From the IMG/VR virus record IMGVR_UViG_3300013232_000048: 53,878 nucleotides of DNA; one strand, written 5' to 3'. Shown piece after piece: positions 29,708 through 47,970 of the stretch; the first letter of the stretch is position 1, and the number at the start of each line of letters is the position of its first letter. Below the pieces are notes generated by a model. The model was not told the origin of the DNA, ran no database searches, and saw only the letters and a program-made list of their open reading frames with translations. The position numbers were made by a program, and so were the translations under genes. The stretch is from a virus.

Positions 29708-29781
29708 GCCGGGTTAGTATAAAAGTATTACAGTAGTTTTGTAAACTTCAAAAGTCGGGGCAGTACCGACACTCGGCTCCA
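29708..29781 (+). tRNA. tRNA-Thr(UGU)-like with non-canonical T-loop GGCAGTA
   Basis: Acceptor GCCGGGT/ACTCGGC. The anticodon arm GTAGT-TTTGTAA-ACTTC has one mismatch. T-arm GTCGG-GGCAGTA-CCGAC. It is a paralog of the tRNA at 29847, with a compensatory swap in the first pair of the anticodon stem. Confidence 0.5.
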
Positions 29782-29846
29782 ATTTGATACGAAATTAGAA
29801 CAAACAGTAATTGTAAAATGAAATTTGAACTATCAGTAGTATCTAT

Positions 29847-29920
29847 GCCAGATTGATGTAAAAGTAGCCTGCAAGTTTCGTAAACTTGATGCGTCGGGGC
29901 AGTACCGATATCTGGCTCCA
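29847..29920 (+). tRNA. tRNA-Thr(CGU)-like with non-canonical T-loop GGCAGTA
   Basis: Acceptor GCCAGAT/ATCTGGC. Anticodon arm CAAGT-TTCGTAA-ACTTG. T-arm GTCGG-GGCAGTA-CCGAT. Confidence 0.55.
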
Positions 29921-30124
29921 ATTTGCTACTTAAAACACCGATAATCGGTGCGATAAATAGCATTGTTTTAACATGTCGGAGTAGGCTCTAAGCGGAGTCA
30001 AAAGTTGTAACTGAATATGTTGTCCATCCACCCCTGTTCAGTGAGAAATGACGAAGTGATACGACACCCTTGAGAATGGACTTGGGGAACAGAACTGATA
30101 TCAAGTACTGACTGTTATGTTGAT

Positions 30125-30195
30125 GTCTCGTTAGTTCAGTGGCAGAACAGACCATTGATAAAGGTCAGACGTTGGCTCTAATCCAACACGAGAAT
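30125..30195 (+). tRNA. tRNA-Ile(GAU)-like; T-loop CTCTAAT; no encoded CCA
   Basis: D-arm TAGTTCAGTGGCAGAAC. Anticodon arm GACCA-TTGATAA-AGGTC. Acceptor GTCTCGT/ACGAGAA with a mismatch at 1-72. Confidence 0.5.
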
Positions 30196-30197
30196 AT

Positions 30198-30283
30198 GCA
30201 CCGTTAGACAAGTGGGAAGTCCGAAGTCTGCAAAACTGCTATTGAGTTGGTTCGATTCCAACACGGTGCTCCAAGATTTTTTC
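30198..30283 (+). tRNA. tRNA-Cys(GCA) (probable)
   Basis: Acceptor GCACCGT/ACGGTGC. Anticodon arm GAAGT-CTGCAAA-ACTGC with one A-G mismatch. T-arm GTTGG-TTCGATT-CCAAC. CCA encoded. Confidence 0.55.
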
Positions 30284-30292
30284 AGAAAGATG

Positions 30293-30321
30293 TTGACATC
30301 TTGCATCGGTTCTGGTAGAGT
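30293..30321 (+). promoter_or_regulatory. sigma70-like promoter (TTGACA-N17-TAGAGT)
   Basis: TTGACAtcttgcatcggttctggTAGAGT. There is no long ORF before the terminator at 30536. Confidence 0.4.
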
Positions 30322-30535
30322 ATGCGGCGTAAGATGAAAATCGGATAAGAAATCCGAGCGAAAAGAAAAGTTGAACAGTATTTATTGATAACAGTATGAA
30401 ACGACAATCACAACATTGGTTTAGACTCTCGGATGCTCTTGCATCCCTTGCAAAGAGTGTCTATATCAATGATCGCCCAGAAGGAAAAGGCTCTTGATGT
30501 AACGTACTTACATACTTACACCAAAGAGCCGACCA

Positions 30536-30562
30536 AAAGGTCGGTTTTTTTGTTGGGAAAAT
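30536..30562 (+). terminator. rho-independent terminator
   Basis: GAGCCGACCaaaaGGTCGG followed by TTTTTTT. Confidence 0.7.
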
Positions 30563-30566
30563 AGTT

Positions 30567-30755
30567 ATGAAAGCAAATGTGGAGTTGGTAAGTGTGACGG
30601 TGAAGATAAATGGTGTAGAAAAGACATTTGCCAAAAAAGATTGTTGGTTTCACGGATGGGAATGGTCAAATGAAGATATCATGGAATGTGATAGTGGAGT
30701 AGATTTAGAGTTGACAGAAGGTAAGAAACGGTATAAGCTGTCTGTAGAAGGTTAG
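30567..30755 (+). CDS. hypothetical small protein
   Basis: 62-aa ORF lying between the terminator and the next promoter. Confidence 0.35.
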   Translation: MKANVELVSVTVKINGVEKTFAKKDCWFHGWEWSNEDIMECDSGVDLELTEGKKRYKLSVEG

Positions 30756-45433: not shown

Positions 45434-45443
45434 TAATCAATGT

Positions 45444-45519
45444 GGCCTTATGGTGAAATTGGACATCATAGAGGTTTCCTAAACCTTAGTTCCCGGTTCG
45501 AGTCCGGGTAGGGCCACCA
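45444..45519 (+). tRNA. tRNA-Arg(CCU)
   Basis: Acceptor GGCCTTA/TAGGGCC. D-arm GGTGAAATTGGACATCAT. Anticodon arm GAGGT-TTCCTAA-ACCTT. T-arm CCCGG-TTCGAGT-CCGGG. Confidence 0.6.
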
Positions 45520-45526
45520 CCACTTT

Positions 45527-45805
45527 ATGATGAAAATTGTACACTGTAAATTCTGCAATGGAGAAACCATCCCCTTGGGTGGTATTTCCATTGATGTCTC
45601 TTTGAGTAGGCATACCCATTGCGACCACTGTTATCACACCCACGAAGAGAAGCGAACCTTTTTCTTCTGTTCTCTCAAATGTATCCACGATTTCATTCGG
45701 ACAGAACTGGAGAATGGCAGGCAGCCTTTCCGATGGATTGAGTATGATCGTCTCAATGGTCAAACAGTTGATCAAGAGTACGCCGTCCCTAAACTTTCTG
45801 CGTGA
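45527..45805 (+). CDS. Cys/His-rich small protein (zinc-binding)
   Basis: CKFCNG...HTHCDHCYHTHEE...CSLKCIHD. Confidence 0.4.
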   Translation: MMKIVHCKFCNGETIPLGGISIDVSLSRHTHCDHCYHTHEEKRTFFFCSLKCIHDFIRTELENGRQPFRWIEYDRLNGQTVDQEYAVPKLSA

Positions 45806-45852
45806 CGTTTGACGGTCAGCCTTGTCTATGTATGTGAAAGGACACATATCAT

Positions 45853-47523
45853 ATGAAAAAAACTGTCAAAACAATCCTCCTACAATTTGGAATCATATTC
45901 CTTGTTGCATTAGTTCTAACCCTGCTGTGCTCTACAATTACTTTTTGGAGCGTTCTCGCTTTATCAGTGACTCTGGCACTCGCTGGCGTTATCATTGGTC
46001 ATGCAGTCTGTTGGTTATGCCATTGGAAACGTCTAAAATGGATTGTCTATAGTACTGTCTGTATTGCAGGAATAGCATTGCTGGGAATAGTGGAAGAAAA
46101 CATCCGCACCAGCCACAATTGGAATACTCATAAGTATGCTTTGGAGCAAAAAGGTGAGCACTTCAATCTGTCGTATTTCATTCCTCCTACTATCCCCGAC
46201 GATAAGAACTTCACAGTGACTCCGTTGCTGAAACCTATTATGGAGTTCAAACGTGGAAAGACCCAAACTGTTTGGTTGGACACCAATGCTTTAGCCAGAG
46301 TTTCAAACATGCGTTCTGAAACACAAATGAAGGGTCAGAAAAATGACAGTAAAGGTGGGAGCATGGAACGGAACACGTTTGCCAATCTTGAAAGCTATCA
46401 AGAGTTTTACAAAGGTAATACGAATTATTGTCAACCTACCAAATCGGGTCCTGCTAGTGAAGATATTCTTATTGCACTTAGCAAATTTGATGTTGAACTG
46501 AATGAACTGAAAGAAGCGACAAAGACCCGACCATTAGCATATTGGCCAGTTCATTATGATACAAATGAAGCGGTGTGGGGTATTCTTCTACCACATCTTT
46601 CTCACATAAAGGGGTTAGCTGTATTTTGTCAAATACACGGAATAGCTGCTGCCGATGCAGGTCTTAGTCAAATGGCTCTTGAAGATTTCACCGTGAGTTT
46701 GAGACTATCAGATTCACTCAAAAACACTCCCATTTTGATTGACCATCTTGTGAGACTGGCAACATTGAATTTGACGATGCAAGGTATCCGAGACGGATTA
46801 TATCGTCATACGTGGAATGTAGAACAACTTCTGGAACTTGAAAAACAATTAGCTCCAATTGATTTGTTATCCGAAGTCAAAGTATCTCTTCGTGGTGAAC
46901 GAGCCATGAATACATTGGGATTGGAACAATTGAGAACGGGGGTTGTCCAGCCCAAAGAAGTTGGATTCGACTTTCCAATGAGAAAAACAATGAGACTTGT
47001 AAGTTGTGTGTTTTACCAAAACATATTGACGATATCCGAGTTGCACCAAGAACTTATTGATACGCCCATTGATGAAAAACGTCATTTGGTTTTTACCAAT
47101 CAACTTCCGAAGATGAAGGAATTTCAAAGCAGACGTAAAACTCCTTACAATATGCTGGCCGGAATGCTGATGCCAGCGTATGAACGAGTTACTATCAAAG
47201 TGGCTCGCACGCAAACAATGGTTGAAGCGGCAAGAACGGCTTGTGCTTTAGAGAGATACCGTTTGGAATGTGGGTCGTTTCCAGATTCGCCGGTAAATCT
47301 TATTCCTACAATTCCCCGAATTCCAACTGATGTAATGGATGGTAAACCACTTCGTTATCGTAAAACATCTGACGGTGGATATGTTTTGTATTCAATCGGA
47401 TGGAATATGGTTGACGACGGTGGCGTTACTGGATTCAAAAAGAACAAAGTAGATGGGAAAGACAAAGATGTACCCGATGCCGAACACGGTGACTGGGTTT
47501 GGTTTATGCCAATGAAGAAATAG
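45853..47523 (+). CDS. membrane-anchored protein, 556 aa (N-terminal 3 TM plus a large soluble domain)
   Basis: Hydrophobic helices in the first about 80 aa. The remainder has no recognised motif. Confidence 0.55.
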   Translation: MKKTVKTILLQFGIIFLVALVLTLLCSTITFWSVLALSVTLALAGVIIGHAVCWLCHWKRLKWIVYSTVCIAGIALLGIVEENIRTSHNWNTHKYALEQKGEHFNLSYFIPPTIPDDKNFTVTPLLKPIMEFKRGKTQTVWLDTNALARVSNMRSETQMKGQKNDSKGGSMERNTFANLESYQEFYKGNTNYCQPTKSGPASEDILIALSKFDVELNELKEATKTRPLAYWPVHYDTNEAVWGILLPHLSHIKGLAVFCQIHGIAAADAGLSQMALEDFTVSLRLSDSLKNTPILIDHLVRLATLNLTMQGIRDGLYRHTWNVEQLLELEKQLAPIDLLSEVKVSLRGERAMNTLGLEQLRTGVVQPKEVGFDFPMRKTMRLVSCVFYQNILTISELHQELIDTPIDEKRHLVFTNQLPKMKEFQSRRKTPYNMLAGMLMPAYERVTIKVARTQTMVEAARTACALERYRLECGSFPDSPVNLIPTIPRIPTDVMDGKPLRYRKTSDGGYVLYSIGWNMVDDGGVTGFKKNKVDGKDKDVPDAEHGDWVWFMPMKK

Positions 47524-47565
47524 TCCTTGACTTTTTCATCCACTTCAGTTATAGTTATAGACAAT

Positions 47566-47656
47566 GGCAGATTAACTGGGCGAGGCTCAGGATCGACTTG
47601 AAATCGAATCGTTCCCCTAAGACGGGAATGGGAAGCGTGATCTCAGTCTGCCGCCA
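47566..47656 (+). tRNA. tRNA-Ser(UGA), class II, non-canonical T-loop AGCGTGA
   Basis: Acceptor GGCAGAT/GTCTGCC. Anticodon arm ATCGA-CTTGAAA-TCGAA. Variable arm TCCC-CTAAGAC-GGGA. T-arm TGGGA-AGCGTGA-TCTCA. It is a paralog of the tRNA at 47880. Confidence 0.55.
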
Positions 47657-47779
47657 ATTTGTGATTGATAGAGGCTGGTCAAGAGTCTTCTCACACGAGA
47701 AGAAAGGTTGTAACCAATTTGTCAATCGGGCGTGTGGTCAACGCTTGGGGCAGGTCCAAATCTGCATCAATCACTTTAT

Positions 47780-47854
47780 GCGAGTATAGCTCAGTGGAAG
47801 AGCAGCACATTTACACTGTGAAGGCCGGAGGTTCAAATCCTTCTACTCGCACCA
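47780..47854 (+). tRNA. tRNA-Val(UAC)
   Basis: Acceptor GCGAGTA/TACTCGC. D-arm TAGCTCAGTGGAAGAGC. Anticodon arm GCACA-TTTACAC-TGTGA. T-arm GGAGG-TTCAAAT-CCTTC. Confidence 0.65.
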
Positions 47855-47879
47855 AATTTGTGTTATAGTTATAAACAAT

Positions 47880-47970
47880 GGTAGGTTAACTGGGCGAGGC
47901 TCAGGACACGGTGCTAACGTGATCGCACCCCTAAGACGGGTGTGGGAGGCAGGATCTCAACCTACCGCCA
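47880..47970 (+). tRNA. tRNA-Ser(GCU), class II, non-canonical T-loop GGCAGGA
   Basis: Acceptor GGTAGGT/ACCTACC. Anticodon arm CACG-GTGCTAA-CGTG. Same variable arm as the tRNA at 47566. T-arm TGGGA-GGCAGGA-TCTCA. Confidence 0.55.

What the first reader, a model, noticed from the sequence alone, without database searches (positions are those of the whole stretch)
29708..47970. Two recurring families of non-canonical T-loops among otherwise well-formed tRNAs
- Beside tRNAs with canonical TTCGANT or TTCAAAT T-loops, many genes here have 7-nt T-loops of the form GGCAG(T/C/G)A or AGC(G/A)T(A/T/G)A, plus TGCAAGT, ATCGATA, ATCGTCC and CTCTAAT.
- The GGCAG(Y/R)A form occurs in Thr x2, Ile, Glu-CUC, Asp and Ser-GCU.
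- The AGC(R)T(N)A form occurs in Pro-UGG, Phe, the GUG-anticodon tRNA and Ser-UGA.
- Each sits between good 5-bp stems, and paralog pairs keep the odd loop while their stems covary.
- Loss of T54-psi55-C56 would change elbow formation, modification enzymes and EF-Tu/ribosome interactions.
- This suggests a distinct functional class of tRNAs (for example decoys, non-translational or processing substrates), or a virus-specific elbow design.
Basis: seen in the sequence. Interest (0 to 1): 0.65.

Follow-up and report, generated by a model that had tools for sequence, protein, structure and literature searches.

The report
tRNAs with an alternative elbow design
About a third of the tRNA genes in this phage tRNA array carry G instead of the near-universal U at T-loop position 55, always with a matching G-to-A change in the D-loop, and the same rebuilt "elbow" recurs in many phages, plasmids and some bacteria, where standard tRNA finders largely miss it.

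Summary
The window holds about 48 tRNA genes (23149-53401, + strand, CCA encoded). Fifteen have G at T-loop position 55: GGCAGNA x7, AGCRTNA x5, TGCRANN x3. Three more change only positions 54/58.

Every G55 tRNA with a readable D-loop has 'AG' where the others have 'GG'. G18:U55 is replaced by A18:G55, with no exception among 41 scored tRNAs. C56, G19, R57 and G53-C61 are kept.

This is not a peculiarity of the window. The same elbow occurs in dozens of unrelated viral contigs, the cultured Streptomyces phage Coruscant (unannotated), the Anabaena PCC 7120 trn operon, Verrucomicrobiota chromosomal arrays, and single Pelagibacter and Obscuribacterales tRNAs. The Anabaena operonic tRNA-Ile(GAU) is reported charged in vivo.

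In 143 tRNAs not chosen by the search pattern, 18:55 and 54:58 give the strongest signals after the helices.

The YGNRA forms match the general T-loop of riboswitches and rRNA, which takes an intercalating adenine.

Best reading: working tRNAs with an alternative, probably equivalent elbow. It is not virus-specific, and there is no support for decoys or pseudogenes. Escape from T-loop nucleases is plausible but untested. I found no prior description.

The parts
23149..53401 (+). tRNA gene array of about 48 genes. All are on the + strand with encoded CCA, interspersed with small ORFs and HNH endonuclease genes.
   Evidence: ARAGORN finds 33. Rfam finds 36. My cloverleaf scan finds 43. Model R1 finds 47 at E<0.1.
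28074..28147 (+). tRNA(CAU), Met or Ile2. D-loop AATAGTA, T-loop GGCAGAA (28125-28131).
   Evidence: Rfam 35.7 bits with lax filters only. R1 61.5 bits.
29708..29781 (+). tRNA-Thr(UGU). D-loop AAAAGTA, T-loop GGCAGTA (29759-29765). Only UGU copy in the array.
   Evidence: R1 61.3 bits. Missed by ARAGORN and Rfam.
29847..29920 (+). tRNA-Thr(CGU). D-loop AAAAGTA, T-loop GGCAGTA (29898-29904).
   Evidence: R1 56.1 bits. Missed by ARAGORN and Rfam.
32687..32760 (+). tRNA-Pro(UGG). D-loop AATAGTA, T-loop AGCATAA (32738-32744). A canonical Pro(UGG) lies at 49577.
   Evidence: Rfam 40.6 bits, with alignment shown. R1 52.3 bits.
33000..33073 (+). tRNA-Ile(GAU). D-loop AATAGCA, T-loop GGCAGTA (33051-33057).
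   Evidence: Rfam 53.2 bits, with alignment placing A at position 18 and GGCAGUA as the T-loop. R1 71.5 bits.
33837..33911 (+). tRNA-Glu(CUC). D-loop AACAGCTA, T-loop GGCAGCA (33889-33895).
   Evidence: Rfam 44.7 bits. R1 63.5 bits.
34637..34722 (+). tRNA-Tyr(GUA), class II. D-loop AGTAGCAA, T-loop TGCAAGT (34700-34706). A canonical Tyr lies at 34731.
   Evidence: ARAGORN. Rfam 53.2 bits.
37270..37344 (+). tRNA-His-like, anticodon GUG. D-loop AATAGTA, T-loop AGCGTAA (37322-37328). It has a bulged C in the acceptor stem. A canonical His lies at 31726.
   Evidence: R1 52.7 bits, with alignment giving the CUGUGAA anticodon loop.
38333..38407 (+). tRNA-Phe(GAA). D-loop AGAAGTTT, T-loop AGCGTTA (38385-38391). 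Only Phe tRNA in the window.
   Evidence: ARAGORN. Rfam 49.5 bits. R1 51.2 bits.
38724..38798 (+). Second tRNA-Glu(UUC). D-loop AAGAGAA, T-loop TGCAATA (38776-38782). The T-stem has one bulge.
   Evidence: Rfam 41.2 bits. R1 58.5 bits with alignment.
39968..40044 (+). tRNA-Asp(GUC). D-loop AACAGCTAG, T-loop GGCAGCA (40022-40028). A canonical Asp lies at 32829.
   Evidence: R1 40.2 bits. Missed by ARAGORN and Rfam.
47566..47656 (+). tRNA-Ser(UGA), class II. T-loop AGCGTGA (47634-47640). The ortholog in L001 has TTCGAAT.
   Evidence: Fold. Alignment A1 with L001:7789-7880. Coordinates.
47880..47970 (+). tRNA-Ser(GCU), class II. T-loop GGCAGGA (47948-47954). It has the same T-stem as Ser(UGA), but the loop differs at positions 54, 57 and 58.
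47977..48050 (+). tRNA-Val(CAC). D-loop AATAGTA, T-loop AGCGTAA (48028-48034). The ortholog L001:9269-9342 keeps both loops while its T-stem pairs differ (GTCGG/CCGGC versus ACTGG/CCAGT, pairing kept).
   Evidence: Alignment A2. R1 58.3 bits.
53328..53401 (+). tRNA-Ala(CGC) with G3:U70. D-loop AACAGTA, T-loop TGCGACT (53379-53385). The syntenic L001 ortholog has AACGGCA and TTCGACT. At the elbow contact positions this is exactly G18A plus U55G, with the rest of the T-loop identical.
   Evidence: ARAGORN. Alignment A2.
32520..32593 (+). tRNA-Gln(UUG). D-loop keeps GG, T-loop ATCGATA (A54, U55, A60). Only the 54/60 module is changed.
   Evidence: ARAGORN.
39221..39295 (+). tRNA-Lys(UUU). D-loop keeps GG, T-loop ATCGTCC (A54:U58 swap, U55 kept).
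   Evidence: ARAGORN.
30125..30195 (+). tRNA-Ile(GAU)-like. T-loop CTCTAAT, no CCA, first acceptor pair mismatched. This is the weakest member and may be a pseudogene.
   Evidence: ARAGORN. Rfam 47.4 bits.

Best explanation
These are real tRNA genes, most probably active in translation, that use an alternative architecture for the elbow, where the D-loop docks on the T-loop.

In ordinary tRNAs, G18 slides between T-loop bases 57 and 58 and bonds to Psi55, and T54 pairs with A58. Here G18:U55 is replaced as a unit by A18:G55.

A second module, positions 54:58:60, is independently switched from U:A:Y to A:U:A (the AGCRUNA family), G:G:A (the GGCAGNA family) or C:A:A.

The outer elbow pair G19-C56, the purine at 57 and the G53-C61 closing pair are kept. 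The flat face read by RNase P, the ribosome and the CCA-adding enzyme should therefore be unchanged (inferred).

The U/C-G-N-R-A versions are exactly the general T-loop consensus of riboswitches, introns and rRNA. In that consensus an adenine is the intercalating base and bonds to the G at loop position 2. The tRNA has thus swapped the tRNA-specific solution for the generic one. This rests on sequence and covariation; the 3-D geometry is inferred.

They interconvert between paralogs, as in the two Ser genes.

The direct chemical consequence follows from the sequence: these tRNAs cannot carry T54 or Psi55 and lack the UUC motif.

Why this is favoured is not shown. My preferred inference, at about 0.3, is insensitivity to factors that read or cut the T-Psi-C loop. 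This fits tRNA arrays that act as back-up or anti-defence tRNA sets. The main alternative is neutral compensatory drift.
For: Shown in the window:
- 29 tRNAs combine a GG D-loop with U55 and 12 combine an AG D-loop with G55. There are no off-diagonal cases (Fisher p = 1e-10).
- Cloverleaf quality equals that of the canonical genes, and all have CCA.

Shown across genomes:
- In tRNAs neighbouring the pattern hits, not themselves selected by the search pattern, the counts are 183 GG/U55, 55 AG/G55, 4 GG/G55 (all AGG) and 5 AG/U55 (p = 5e-44).
- In 143 gap-free same-architecture tRNAs, the highest mutual information after the helix pairs is 18:55 (0.97 bit), then 54:58 (0.96) and 54:60 (0.84).

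Orthologs in a syntenic relative (L001, 75% amino-acid identity in the neighbouring gene):
- Ala(CGC) differs at the elbow contact positions by G18A plus U55G.
- Val(CAC) keeps both odd loops while its T-stem pairs differ, with pairing kept.
- Ser(UGA) keeps its body but has a different T-arm.

A covariance model built only from 48 non-window G55 tRNAs ranks the window's odd tRNAs first, at 40-71 bits. These include five that ARAGORN and Rfam miss.

Function:
- G3:U70 is kept in tRNA-Ala, and several odd tRNAs are the sole isoacceptors in the array.
- Pelagibacter tRNA-His keeps AATAGTA/GGCAGAA while all four stems change compensatorily between two genomes.
- The only Ile(GAU) gene of the Anabaena trn operon has AAAAGTG/GGCAGTA (R1 46.6 bits). 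That operonic tRNA was reported detected and aminoacylated in vivo, and the operonic tRNAs tested were found in the polysome fraction (PMC8421152).

Structural precedent (bioRxiv 10.1101/2022.12.26.521914):
- Non-tRNA T-loops are YGNRA.
- Adenine is the near-exclusive intercalator and H-bonds to G2.
- A GGAAG rRNA T-loop exists.

Context for the adaptive reading:
- The CRISPR-associated nuclease Cash cuts tRNA T-loops at UUC, and U54 or U55 single mutants are not cut (PMC13462974).
- CdiA-CT(E479) also cuts the T-loop (PMC9086364).
- Among 143 ORFs next to 41 G55-rich arrays, the commonest non-HNH families include RtcB (8) and TROVE/Ro60 (6), with RNA ligase (3), RlaP (2) and Band_7 (2) also present.
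- tRNA arrays are discussed as back-up or anti-defence sets (PMC8421152, PMC12803027, PMC7824862).
Against: - There is no structural, expression or charging data for this window's genes, and the host is unknown.
- Some members have blemishes: a bulge in the acceptor stem of the His-like gene, a bulged T-stem in the second Glu, and one anticodon-stem mismatch in Thr(UGU).
- The Anabaena tRNA-Ile(GAU) migrated aberrantly on acid gels. The authors could not exclude misacylation.
- The A54:U58 form has no structural precedent that I found.

Against the adaptive (nuclease-escape) part:
- Two thirds of the window's tRNAs stay canonical.
- Free-living Pelagibacter uses the variant for single, non-array tRNA genes.
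- RNA-repair genes accompany tRNA arrays in general, including arrays that are mostly canonical (Coruscant, A3Wally).
Confidence: 0.78

Rival explanations
1. The variant elbow is a neutral isostere. It arises by compensatory double substitution where selection on individual tRNA genes is relaxed, as in supernumerary copies in phage and plasmid arrays. It then spreads by duplication and horizontal transfer and gives no advantage.
For: - Canonical and variant genes are mixed in one array, often as duplicates of the same anticodon: Ile, Asp, His, Pro, Tyr and Glu.
- Close relatives differ in which genes are converted.
- Single non-array tRNAs of Pelagibacter and Obscuribacterales carry the variant.
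- G at T-loop position 2 with an intercalating A is a common, stable solution elsewhere.
Against: - Some arrays are converted almost completely: 20-24 different tRNA identities in Verrucomicrobiota loci, and viral loci L062, L089 and L112. Under drift alone this needs many independent double changes or descent from one converted lineage.
- The loops are then strongly conserved (invariant G19, G55 and C56 in alignment A3).
Confidence: 0.35
2. The variant is a counter-defence adaptation. Removing U54-U55 makes the tRNAs resistant to T-loop-directed nucleases, or independent of TrmA/TruB, so that translation continues when host tRNAs are attacked.
For: - Cash cleaves 5' of U55 and needs U54 and U55. 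Its authors state that whether phage tRNAs are targeted remains open (PMC13462974).
- CdiA-CT(E479) cuts the T-loop.
- RtcB, Ro60/TROVE, RNA ligase and RlaP are the recurrent neighbours of G55-rich arrays.
- Phage tRNAs are known to escape anticodon nucleases through loop mutations (cited in PMC12803027 and PMC13462974).
Against: - There is no evidence that any host of these elements has a T-loop nuclease.
- Only about one third of the window's tRNAs are converted.
- The repair-gene association is not specific to G55 arrays.
- Single cellular tRNAs carry the variant too.
Confidence: 0.3
3. The odd genes encode non-translational tRNA-like RNAs, such as decoys for nucleases, ligands of Ro60/vault-like proteins, or processing punctuation, rather than decoding tRNAs.
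For: - A vault (MVP)-like protein is encoded inside the array, and Ro60 genes lie next to related arrays.
- The window also holds clearly aberrant tRNA-like elements at 39037-39106 and 38414-38489.
- The Anabaena tRNA-Ile(GAU) shows aberrant gel mobility.
Against: - The genes have full anticodon arms with U33 and diverse sense anticodons that complement the canonical set.
- Identity elements are kept (G3:U70 in Ala, long arms in Ser).
- The Anabaena example is reported charged in vivo, and the operonic tRNAs tested there were in the polysome fraction.
- Pelagibacter uses the design for single tRNA-His and tRNA-Phe genes outside any array.
Confidence: 0.07
4. The odd genes are decaying pseudogenes, or the odd loops are artefacts of mis-drawn T-arms.
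For: - ARAGORN and Rfam miss seven of them.
- Ile-30125 lacks CCA and has a mismatched first acceptor pair.
Against:
- The hairpins occur 13 times against 0.5 expected.
- 18:55 covariation is perfect in the window.
- Loops are conserved between orthologs while stem pairs change with pairing kept.
- R1 scores are high.
Confidence: 0.03

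Closest known systems
Canonical bacterial and phage elongator tRNA (Rfam RF00005)
   Same: Cloverleaf with a 7-bp acceptor, 4-bp D, 5-bp anticodon and 5-bp T stems, a 7-nt T-loop, U33, G53-C61, G19-C56, R57 and a CCA end. Eight of the 15 exceed the Rfam gathering score.
   Different: A18 replaces G18 and G55 replaces U55, so Psi55 is impossible. Position 54 is G, A, U or C, so T54 is often impossible. 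Position 58 is G or U in two classes, and position 60 is A. Seven of the 15 escape both ARAGORN and Rfam.
General T-loop motif of riboswitches, introns and rRNA (YGNRA with an intercalating adenine; GGAAG variant in rRNA)
   Same: The TGCRA and CGCRA loops fit YGNRA, and the partner loop supplies an adenine (A18). The GGCAG loop resembles the rRNA GGAAG T-loop (bioRxiv 10.1101/2022.12.26.521914).
   Different: Here the motif sits in the tRNA elbow, with C at loop position 3 pairing with G19. The AGCRU form (A1:U5) is not part of the described consensus. No 3-D structure exists.
Metazoan mitochondrial tRNAs with degenerate D/T-loop contacts
   Same: They lack the G18-Psi55 signature and are poorly detected by standard models.
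   Different: As I recall, mitochondrial elbows are eroded and variable. Here the replacement is precise, conserved and covarying, with G19-C56 and full-size arms kept.
Eukaryotic initiator tRNA (A54 and A60; from my own knowledge)
   Same: A54 with A60, as in the AGCRUNA class and in Gln ATCGATA.
   Different: The initiator keeps Psi55 and G18 and has A58. The tRNAs here are bacterial-type elongators.
[quoted passage not shown]
   Same: A dense array of tRNA genes with encoded CCA, with HNH endonucleases and RNA-repair genes nearby. The Anabaena trn operon contains a GGCAGUA tRNA-Ile.
   Different: The array papers I could read do not mention the elbow variant. In the one paper where I checked the term, 'T-loop' occurs zero times (PMC8421152). 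The variant also occurs outside arrays.
Phage tRNAs that escape anticodon nucleases through anticodon-loop changes (T5 and mycobacteriophages)
   Same: The concept is the same: phage or array tRNAs differ from host tRNAs at a nuclease recognition site.
   Different: The site is the T-loop and D-loop, not the anticodon loop, and resistance is untested.

Membership tests
tRNA (RF00005) | Cloverleaf secondary structure with standard arm lengths | tested here: met
   My cloverleaf scan scores 18-21 of 21 possible pairs, the same range as canonical genes. The Rfam model aligns positions 1-71 end to end.
tRNA (RF00005) | Score at or above the Rfam gathering threshold (29 bits) | tested here: inconclusive
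   Eight of 15 pass, at 35.7-53.2 bits, two of them only with lax filters. Seven are not reported even at E<=10.
tRNA (RF00005) | Conserved T-loop U54-U55-C56-R57-A58 and D-loop G18-G19 | tested here: not met
   G55 is present in all 15. Position 54 is G, A or U and position 58 is G, U or A. A18 replaces G18. C56, R57 and G19 are kept.
tRNA (RF00005) | D-loop/T-loop tertiary contact (elbow) | tested here: met
   This is shown at the sequence level only. 18:55 covariation is 0.97 bit, with 53 G:U, 82 A:G and 5 C:G among 143 tRNAs. 3-D structure is not testable with these tools.
tRNA (RF00005) | Aminoacylation and use in translation | not testable with these tools
   Indirect evidence only. G3:U70 is present in Ala, Ser has long arms, and CCA is encoded. 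The Anabaena operonic tRNA-Ile(GAU), which has a GGCAGUA loop, is reported charged in vivo (PMC8421152).
General T-loop motif (YGNRA plus intercalating A) | Loop positions 1-5 are Y-G-N-R-A | tested here: met
   Met for Tyr TGCAA, Ala TGCGA and the second Glu TGCAA. Not met for the GGCAG and AGCRU classes, whose positions 1 and 5 differ (consensus).
General T-loop motif (YGNRA plus intercalating A) | An adenine from the partner element accompanies G at loop position 2 | tested here: met
   A18 accompanies G55 in 12 of 12 window tRNAs and 82 of 87 cross-genome tRNAs. The intercalation itself is inferred.
tRNA pseudogene | Loss of pairing, no conservation, no compensatory change | tested here: not met
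   Stems are intact. Stem pairs differ with pairing kept between orthologs while the loops are conserved. Only Ile-30125 (no CCA) looks degenerate.
Nuclease-resistant (counter-defence) phage tRNA | Sequence change at the recognition or cleavage site of a tRNA-targeting defence nuclease | tested here: inconclusive
   The UUC motif required by Cash is absent, and Cash does not cut U54 or U55 single mutants (PMC13462974). No nuclease is known for the unknown host.
Nuclease-resistant (counter-defence) phage tRNA | Demonstrated resistance and rescue of translation | not testable with these tools
   This needs cleavage assays and infection experiments.
Bacterial Y RNA / tRNA-like Ro60 ligand | tRNA-like acceptor/T/D module without a decoding anticodon arm, encoded next to rsr (Ro60) | tested here: not met
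   The genes have full anticodon arms with sense anticodons. No TROVE gene was found among the window ORFs scanned.

The most novel reading that the evidence does not exclude
The A18:G55 elbow is an evolved 'stealth' tRNA chassis. Swapping the tRNA-specific T-Psi-C/G18 contact for the generic YGNRA/adenine T-loop solution keeps the L-shape and the G19-C56 face that the ribosome, RNase P and CCA enzyme need. At the same time it becomes invisible to enzymes that read or cut U54-U55, namely T-loop nucleases such as Cash or CdiA-CT(E479), and TrmA and TruB. Whole tRNA sets built on this chassis travel with RNA-repair and vault/Ro-like modules in phages, plasmids and Verrucomicrobiota chromosomes, as a back-up translation system for periods when ordinary tRNAs are under attack.
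Probability: 0.27. Interest if true: 0.88.

Novelty: new variant of a known kind. Interest (0 to 1): 0.72.

Why it matters
- **Textbook invariants.** G18, U55 (as Psi55) and T54 are treated as near-universal tRNA features (review PMC7912444). Here is a precise, covarying replacement used by complete tRNA sets, and it reaches single non-array tRNAs of abundant marine bacteria.
- **A natural tertiary-contact experiment.** The 18:55 switch is a mutant cycle run by nature. It links the tRNA elbow to the general T-loop rules worked out for riboswitches.
- **Annotation.** In this window 12 of 15 such genes are missed by ARAGORN and 7 by both ARAGORN and Rfam. Two are unannotated in the GenBank record of a cultured phage (Coruscant), and ARAGORN run here misses one in the Anabaena trn operon. 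tRNA complements of phages, plasmids and some bacteria are therefore probably undercounted, and codon-usage or host-dependence inferences built on them are biased.
- **Phage defence.** T-loop-cutting defence nucleases have just been described, and whether phage tRNAs escape them is stated as an open question. These genes give ready-made substrates to test it.
- **Engineering.** tRNAs that cannot be modified by TrmA or TruB yet are still charged may be useful as orthogonal scaffolds.

Tried and rejected
- **Source of the window.** Megablast of 12 kb of the array against GenBank phages gave no match.
- **Relatives.** The 556-aa ORF gave no viral relatives. The MVP-like ORF gave two, and one of them (L002) has no tRNAs.
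- **tRNA enzymes in the window.** Pfam and PHROGs scans of about 30 window ORFs found no tRNA-modifying, CCA-adding, RNA-ligase or nuclease gene other than HNH endonucleases.
- **MVP-like protein versus Band_7.** The window's MVP-like protein shows no detectable similarity to the Band_7 protein next to a Verrucomicrobiota array.
- **Cultured phages.** Phages reached by BLAST of single tRNAs or of the L062 array turned out canonical: Caulobacter CcrRogue, Microbacterium A3Wally, Gordonia Woes and Corynebacterium StAB. Only a concatenated query of 27 G55 tRNAs found carriers: Streptomyces phage Coruscant, plus A54 variants in Xanthomonas phage X1.
- **tmRNA.** I checked whether the window's tmRNA shares the odd loop. 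It does not.
- **Literature.** All ten searches found no description of A18/G55 tRNAs. Wang et al. 2007 on alphaproteobacterial tRNA-His was not available.
- **Census.** I could not make an unbiased count.
- **Prosthecobacter arrays.** I could not fetch the rest of those genomes to decide whether the arrays are housekeeping or extra tRNA sets.
- **Rejected ideas.** Mis-parsed D-loops was my first suspicion for GGCAG and AGCGTAA; the covariance-model alignments refuted it. Pseudogenes and virus-specificity were also rejected.

Full report
**What is in the window.**
The window is 40.7% G+C. It carries a tmRNA gene (5381-5785) and a long run of tRNA genes from 23149 to 53401, all on the + strand and all with an encoded CCA end.
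- ARAGORN reports 33 tRNAs and Rfam 36.
- I wrote a cloverleaf scan that ignores D- and T-loop sequence. It finds 43.
- Run on both strands without requiring CCA, that scan gives 36 hits at score >=20. All are on the + strand and all are followed by CCA, so it is specific.
- Small ORFs lie between the tRNAs. They include four HNH endonucleases and an 851-aa protein with major-vault-protein shoulder and repeat domains.
- No close relative exists among GenBank phages. The tmRNA, HNH genes and array structure point to a large uncultured phage.

**Checking the observation.**
- Perfect 5-bp hairpins with a GGCAGNA or AGCRTNA loop occur 13 times. The mean in 200 dinucleotide shuffles is 0.5 and the maximum is 4.
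They do not. The Rfam covariance model aligns GGCAGUA, GGCAGCA and AGCAUAA to the UUCgAaU loop, end to end over model positions 1-71. ARAGORN draws AGCGTTA, TGCAAGT, ATCGATA, ATCGTCC and CTCTAAT as T-loops.
- In total 15 tRNAs have G at position 55. Three others (Gln, Lys, Ile-30125) change only positions 54/58.

In all 12 class-I tRNAs with G55 the D-loop reads AG and has no GG: AATAGTA, AAAAGTA, AATAGCA, AACAGCTA, AGAAGTTT, AGTAGCAA, AACAGTA.
- All 29 tRNAs with U55 have GG. There are no mixed cases (Fisher p = 1e-10).
- For 7-nt D-loops the changed base aligns unambiguously to position 18. For longer loops I infer this from the AG.
- G18 and Psi55 form the inner D-loop/T-loop contact of the tRNA elbow, so this is covariation across a tertiary contact.
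- The class-II Ser D-loops (GCGAGGC) are ambiguous.

**It is not confined to this window.**
- About half the hits are good cloverleafs from unrelated contigs.
- Their neighbours, which the pattern did not select, include many TGCRA, CGCRA and AGCRT T-loops, again with AG D-loops.
- Among those unselected neighbours the table is 183 GG/U55, 55 AG/G55, 4 GG/G55 (all AGG) and 5 AG/U55 (p = 5e-44).
- Some viral loci (L062, L089, L112, L023) are almost wholly G55.

Three contexts appear.
- Arrays of 10-24 tRNAs, nearly all G55/A18, in Verrucomicrobiota. Several sit on contigs of 0.58-0.96 Mb, and one is in the isolate Prosthecobacter fluviatilis KACC 12649. In these arrays tRNA-Glu(UUC) stays canonical.
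- tRNA-His (AATAGTA/GGCAGAA) and tRNA-Phe (AGGAGTA/TGCGAAT) in at least seven Pelagibacterales genomes, including isolate HIMB1483. All four stems change compensatorily between two genomes while both loops stay fixed.
- tRNA-Pro and tRNA-His of Obscuribacterales, sitting between canonical Asp and Gln genes.

*Cultured or studied carriers.*
- Streptomyces phage Coruscant has two such genes that its GenBank record does not annotate: Val(UAC) GGCAGAA and His(GUG) GGCGGTA.
- The last gene of the Anabaena/Nostoc PCC 7120 trn operon on plasmid delta is a tRNA-Ile(GAU) with AAAAGTG/GGCAGTA. ARAGORN misses it.

**Formal covariation.**
I took 143 distinct tRNAs of identical architecture (71 nt, no gaps), excluding those chosen by the search pattern.
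- After the helix pairs, the highest mutual-information pairs are 18:55 (0.97 bit: G:U 53, A:G 82, C:G 5), 54:58 (0.96 bit: U:A 92, A:U 26, G:G 10, C:A 7, C:U 5), 54:60 (0.84) and 58:60 (0.59).
- Coupling between 54 and 55 is weak (0.16 bit). There are therefore two modules: 18:55, and 54:58:60.
TGCRA and CGCRA are further settings.

**Orthologs.**
A relative found through the MVP-like gene (L001, 75% amino-acid identity) keeps the gene order SerUGA-ValUAC-SerGCU-ValCAC-Val-ProUGG-...-AlaCGC.
- Its tRNA-Ala has AACGGCA/TTCGACT against the window's AACAGTA/TGCGACT. At the elbow contact positions this is G18A plus U55G, and the rest of the T-loop is identical.
- Val(CAC) keeps AATAGTA/AGCGTAA in both, while the T-stem pairs differ with pairing kept.
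- Ser(UGA) is clearly orthologous in its acceptor, D, anticodon and variable arms, but has TTCGAAT in L001 and AGCGTGA in the window.
- The window's two Ser genes share a T-stem but differ at 54, 57 and 58 (AGCGTGA versus GGCAGGA). The classes therefore interconvert.

**Independent detection.**
A covariance model (R1) built only from 48 non-window G55 tRNAs ranks the window's odd tRNAs at the top, at 40-71 bits (E of 1e-11 to 1e-22). These include 29708, 29847, 37270, 39968 and 47977, which ARAGORN and Rfam both miss. In alignment A3, G19, G55 and C56 are invariant, and A18, G53 and C61 are nearly so.

**How it probably works.**
Outside tRNA, T-loops follow the consensus YGNRA.
- The proportions reported are UGNRA about 89% and CGNRA about 11%.
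- An adenine from the partner element is almost always the base that intercalates between loop positions 4 and 5, and it makes two hydrogen bonds to the G at position 2.
- A GGAAG T-loop is known in rRNA.
- tRNA is singled out as the exception, with U at position 2 (bioRxiv 10.1101/2022.12.26.521914).

The TGCRA and CGCRA tRNAs with A18 therefore look like the generic T-loop solution installed in the tRNA elbow, and GGCAG resembles the rRNA variant. I found no precedent for A54:U58.

G19-C56, R57 and G53-C61 are retained. The outer stacking face and the loop frame should therefore be unchanged. This step is inferred, not shown.

What follows directly from the sequence is that T54 and Psi55 cannot be made and the UUC motif is gone.

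**Are they used?**
Direct evidence for this window is lacking. The indirect evidence is good.
- They carry sense anticodons that complement the canonical set. Phe, both Ser, Thr-UGU and CAU are sole copies.
- G3:U70 is present in Ala.
- Ser has long variable arms.
- CCA ends are encoded.
- The design is conserved in single Pelagibacter tRNA-His and tRNA-Phe genes that lie outside any array.
[quoted passage not shown] The Ile and Phe species migrated aberrantly, and misacylation could not be excluded (PMC8421152). The term 'T-loop' does not occur in that paper.

**Why it might be favoured.**
- tRNA arrays are discussed as back-up or anti-defence tRNA supplies (PMC8421152, PMC12803027, PMC7824862).
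- Two T-loop nucleases are documented. Cash, a CRISPR-associated Schlafen, cuts 5' of U55 in the UUC motif and does not cut U54 or U55 mutants. Its authors leave open whether phage tRNAs are targeted (PMC13462974). CdiA-CT(E479) also cuts the T-loop (PMC9086364).
- Among 143 ORFs flanking 41 G55-rich arrays, the recurrent families besides HNH endonucleases include RtcB (8), ZnuA (7), TROVE/Ro60 (6), RNA ligase (3), RlaP (2) and Band_7 (2). ZnuA is probably just a conserved chromosomal neighbour in the Prosthecobacter lineage.
- This fits a tRNA-damage conflict. However, such genes also accompany mostly canonical arrays, the window converts only a third of its tRNAs, and free-living bacteria use the variant for single non-array tRNAs.
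- I therefore rate nuclease escape at about 0.3 and neutral compensatory drift at about 0.35. The core claim, functional tRNAs with an alternative elbow, I rate at about 0.78.

**Novelty.**
Ten full-text searches found no description of A18/G55 tRNAs. A recent review of T-loop conservation does not mention them. I cannot exclude a description in papers outside the library. I class this as a new variant of a known kind. It also has a practical consequence: current annotation misses most of these genes.

Noticed in passing
window 41668-44223 (+): An 851-aa protein with major-vault-protein shoulder (E 1.6e-21) and Vault_3 repeat domains is encoded in the middle of the tRNA array. It has relatives at 71-75% identity in two viral contigs (L001, L002). 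A Band_7/SPFH protein, Ro60/TROVE and RtcB flank G55-rich arrays elsewhere, so a vault/Ro-like RNA-handling module may be linked to tRNA arrays.
   Followed up: partly
window 5836-15498 (+): A 3220-aa ORF directly downstream of the tmRNA gene has no Pfam match.
   Followed up: partly
window 5381-5785 (+): A tmRNA gene (Rfam 102 bits) that ARAGORN does not detect. Its tRNA-like end has the canonical GGGUUCGAUUCCC T-loop, unlike a third of the tRNAs.
   Followed up: yes
window 29191-29283 (+); L089 8881-8971 (-): A class-II-like tRNA with anticodon UAU, a 6-bp anticodon stem and a long variable arm. A similar long-arm UAU tRNA, with a TGCGAGT T-loop, occurs in an unrelated viral contig. Its identity (Ile, or a Ser/Leu-type body reading AUA) is unclear.
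   Followed up: no
window 39037-39106 (+): A tRNA-like element with good acceptor, D (AATAGCA) and T arms and a CCA end. Its anticodon arm is reduced to a 4-bp stem with a GTGA tetraloop, and its T-loop is TTCATTT. It combines A18 with U55, an exception to the rule. R1 scores it at 35 bits.
   Followed up: partly
window 38414-38489 (+): A tRNA-like element just after tRNA-Phe. It has a perfect acceptor stem with G3:U70, a D-arm with ATAGTA and an ACCA end, but aberrant anticodon and T regions.
   Followed up: no
window 39772-39889 (+): A tRNA-like gene with an insertion of about 45 nt between the D-arm and the T-arm. Rfam scores it as tRNA at 42 bits, and alternatively as tmRNA at 27 bits. The T-loop is canonical and no CCA follows.
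   Followed up: no
window 31417-31502 (+): ARAGORN calls this tRNA-Lys(UUU). It is 86 nt long with a 12-nt apparently unpaired variable region, which is unusual for Lys.
   Followed up: no
window 17108-18202, 21422-22156, 50549-51028 (+): ADP-ribosylglycohydrolase, an R2K-clade ATP-grasp protein and a Dam-type methyltransferase. An ADP-ribosylglycohydrolase also turned up next to a G55-rich array elsewhere.
   Followed up: no
viral and genome loci (for example L200 151-221, L223 1542-1612, L247 8997-9070): tRNA-Lys(UUU) genes in which the U8:A14 tertiary pair is swapped to A8:U14, with a D-loop starting TAAAGTG. This occurs in 12 of 143 tRNAs and is a second covarying tertiary pair.
   Followed up: partly
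viral loci L047, L056, L064, L067, L077, L099, L112: Covariation of the outer elbow pair 19:56 away from G:C. Examples are D-loop GA with T-loop TTT, GT with TTA, GC with TTG, and AT with GGA or TGA.
   Followed up: partly
L136, L176, L181, L194, L235, L242 (Verrucomicrobiota arrays): In arrays where nearly every tRNA is G55/A18, tRNA-Glu(UUC) consistently keeps the canonical GG D-loop and TTCRAAT T-loop. tRNA-Arg(UCU) does so in some of them.
   Followed up: no
L248 9002-9072 and 17842-17915 (Streptomyces phage Coruscant, MT711976): Two well-formed tRNA genes, Val(UAC) and His(GUG), with the variant elbow are not annotated in the GenBank record. The same region encodes a Ro-like protein, an RNA ligase and a VWA protein.
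   Followed up: yes
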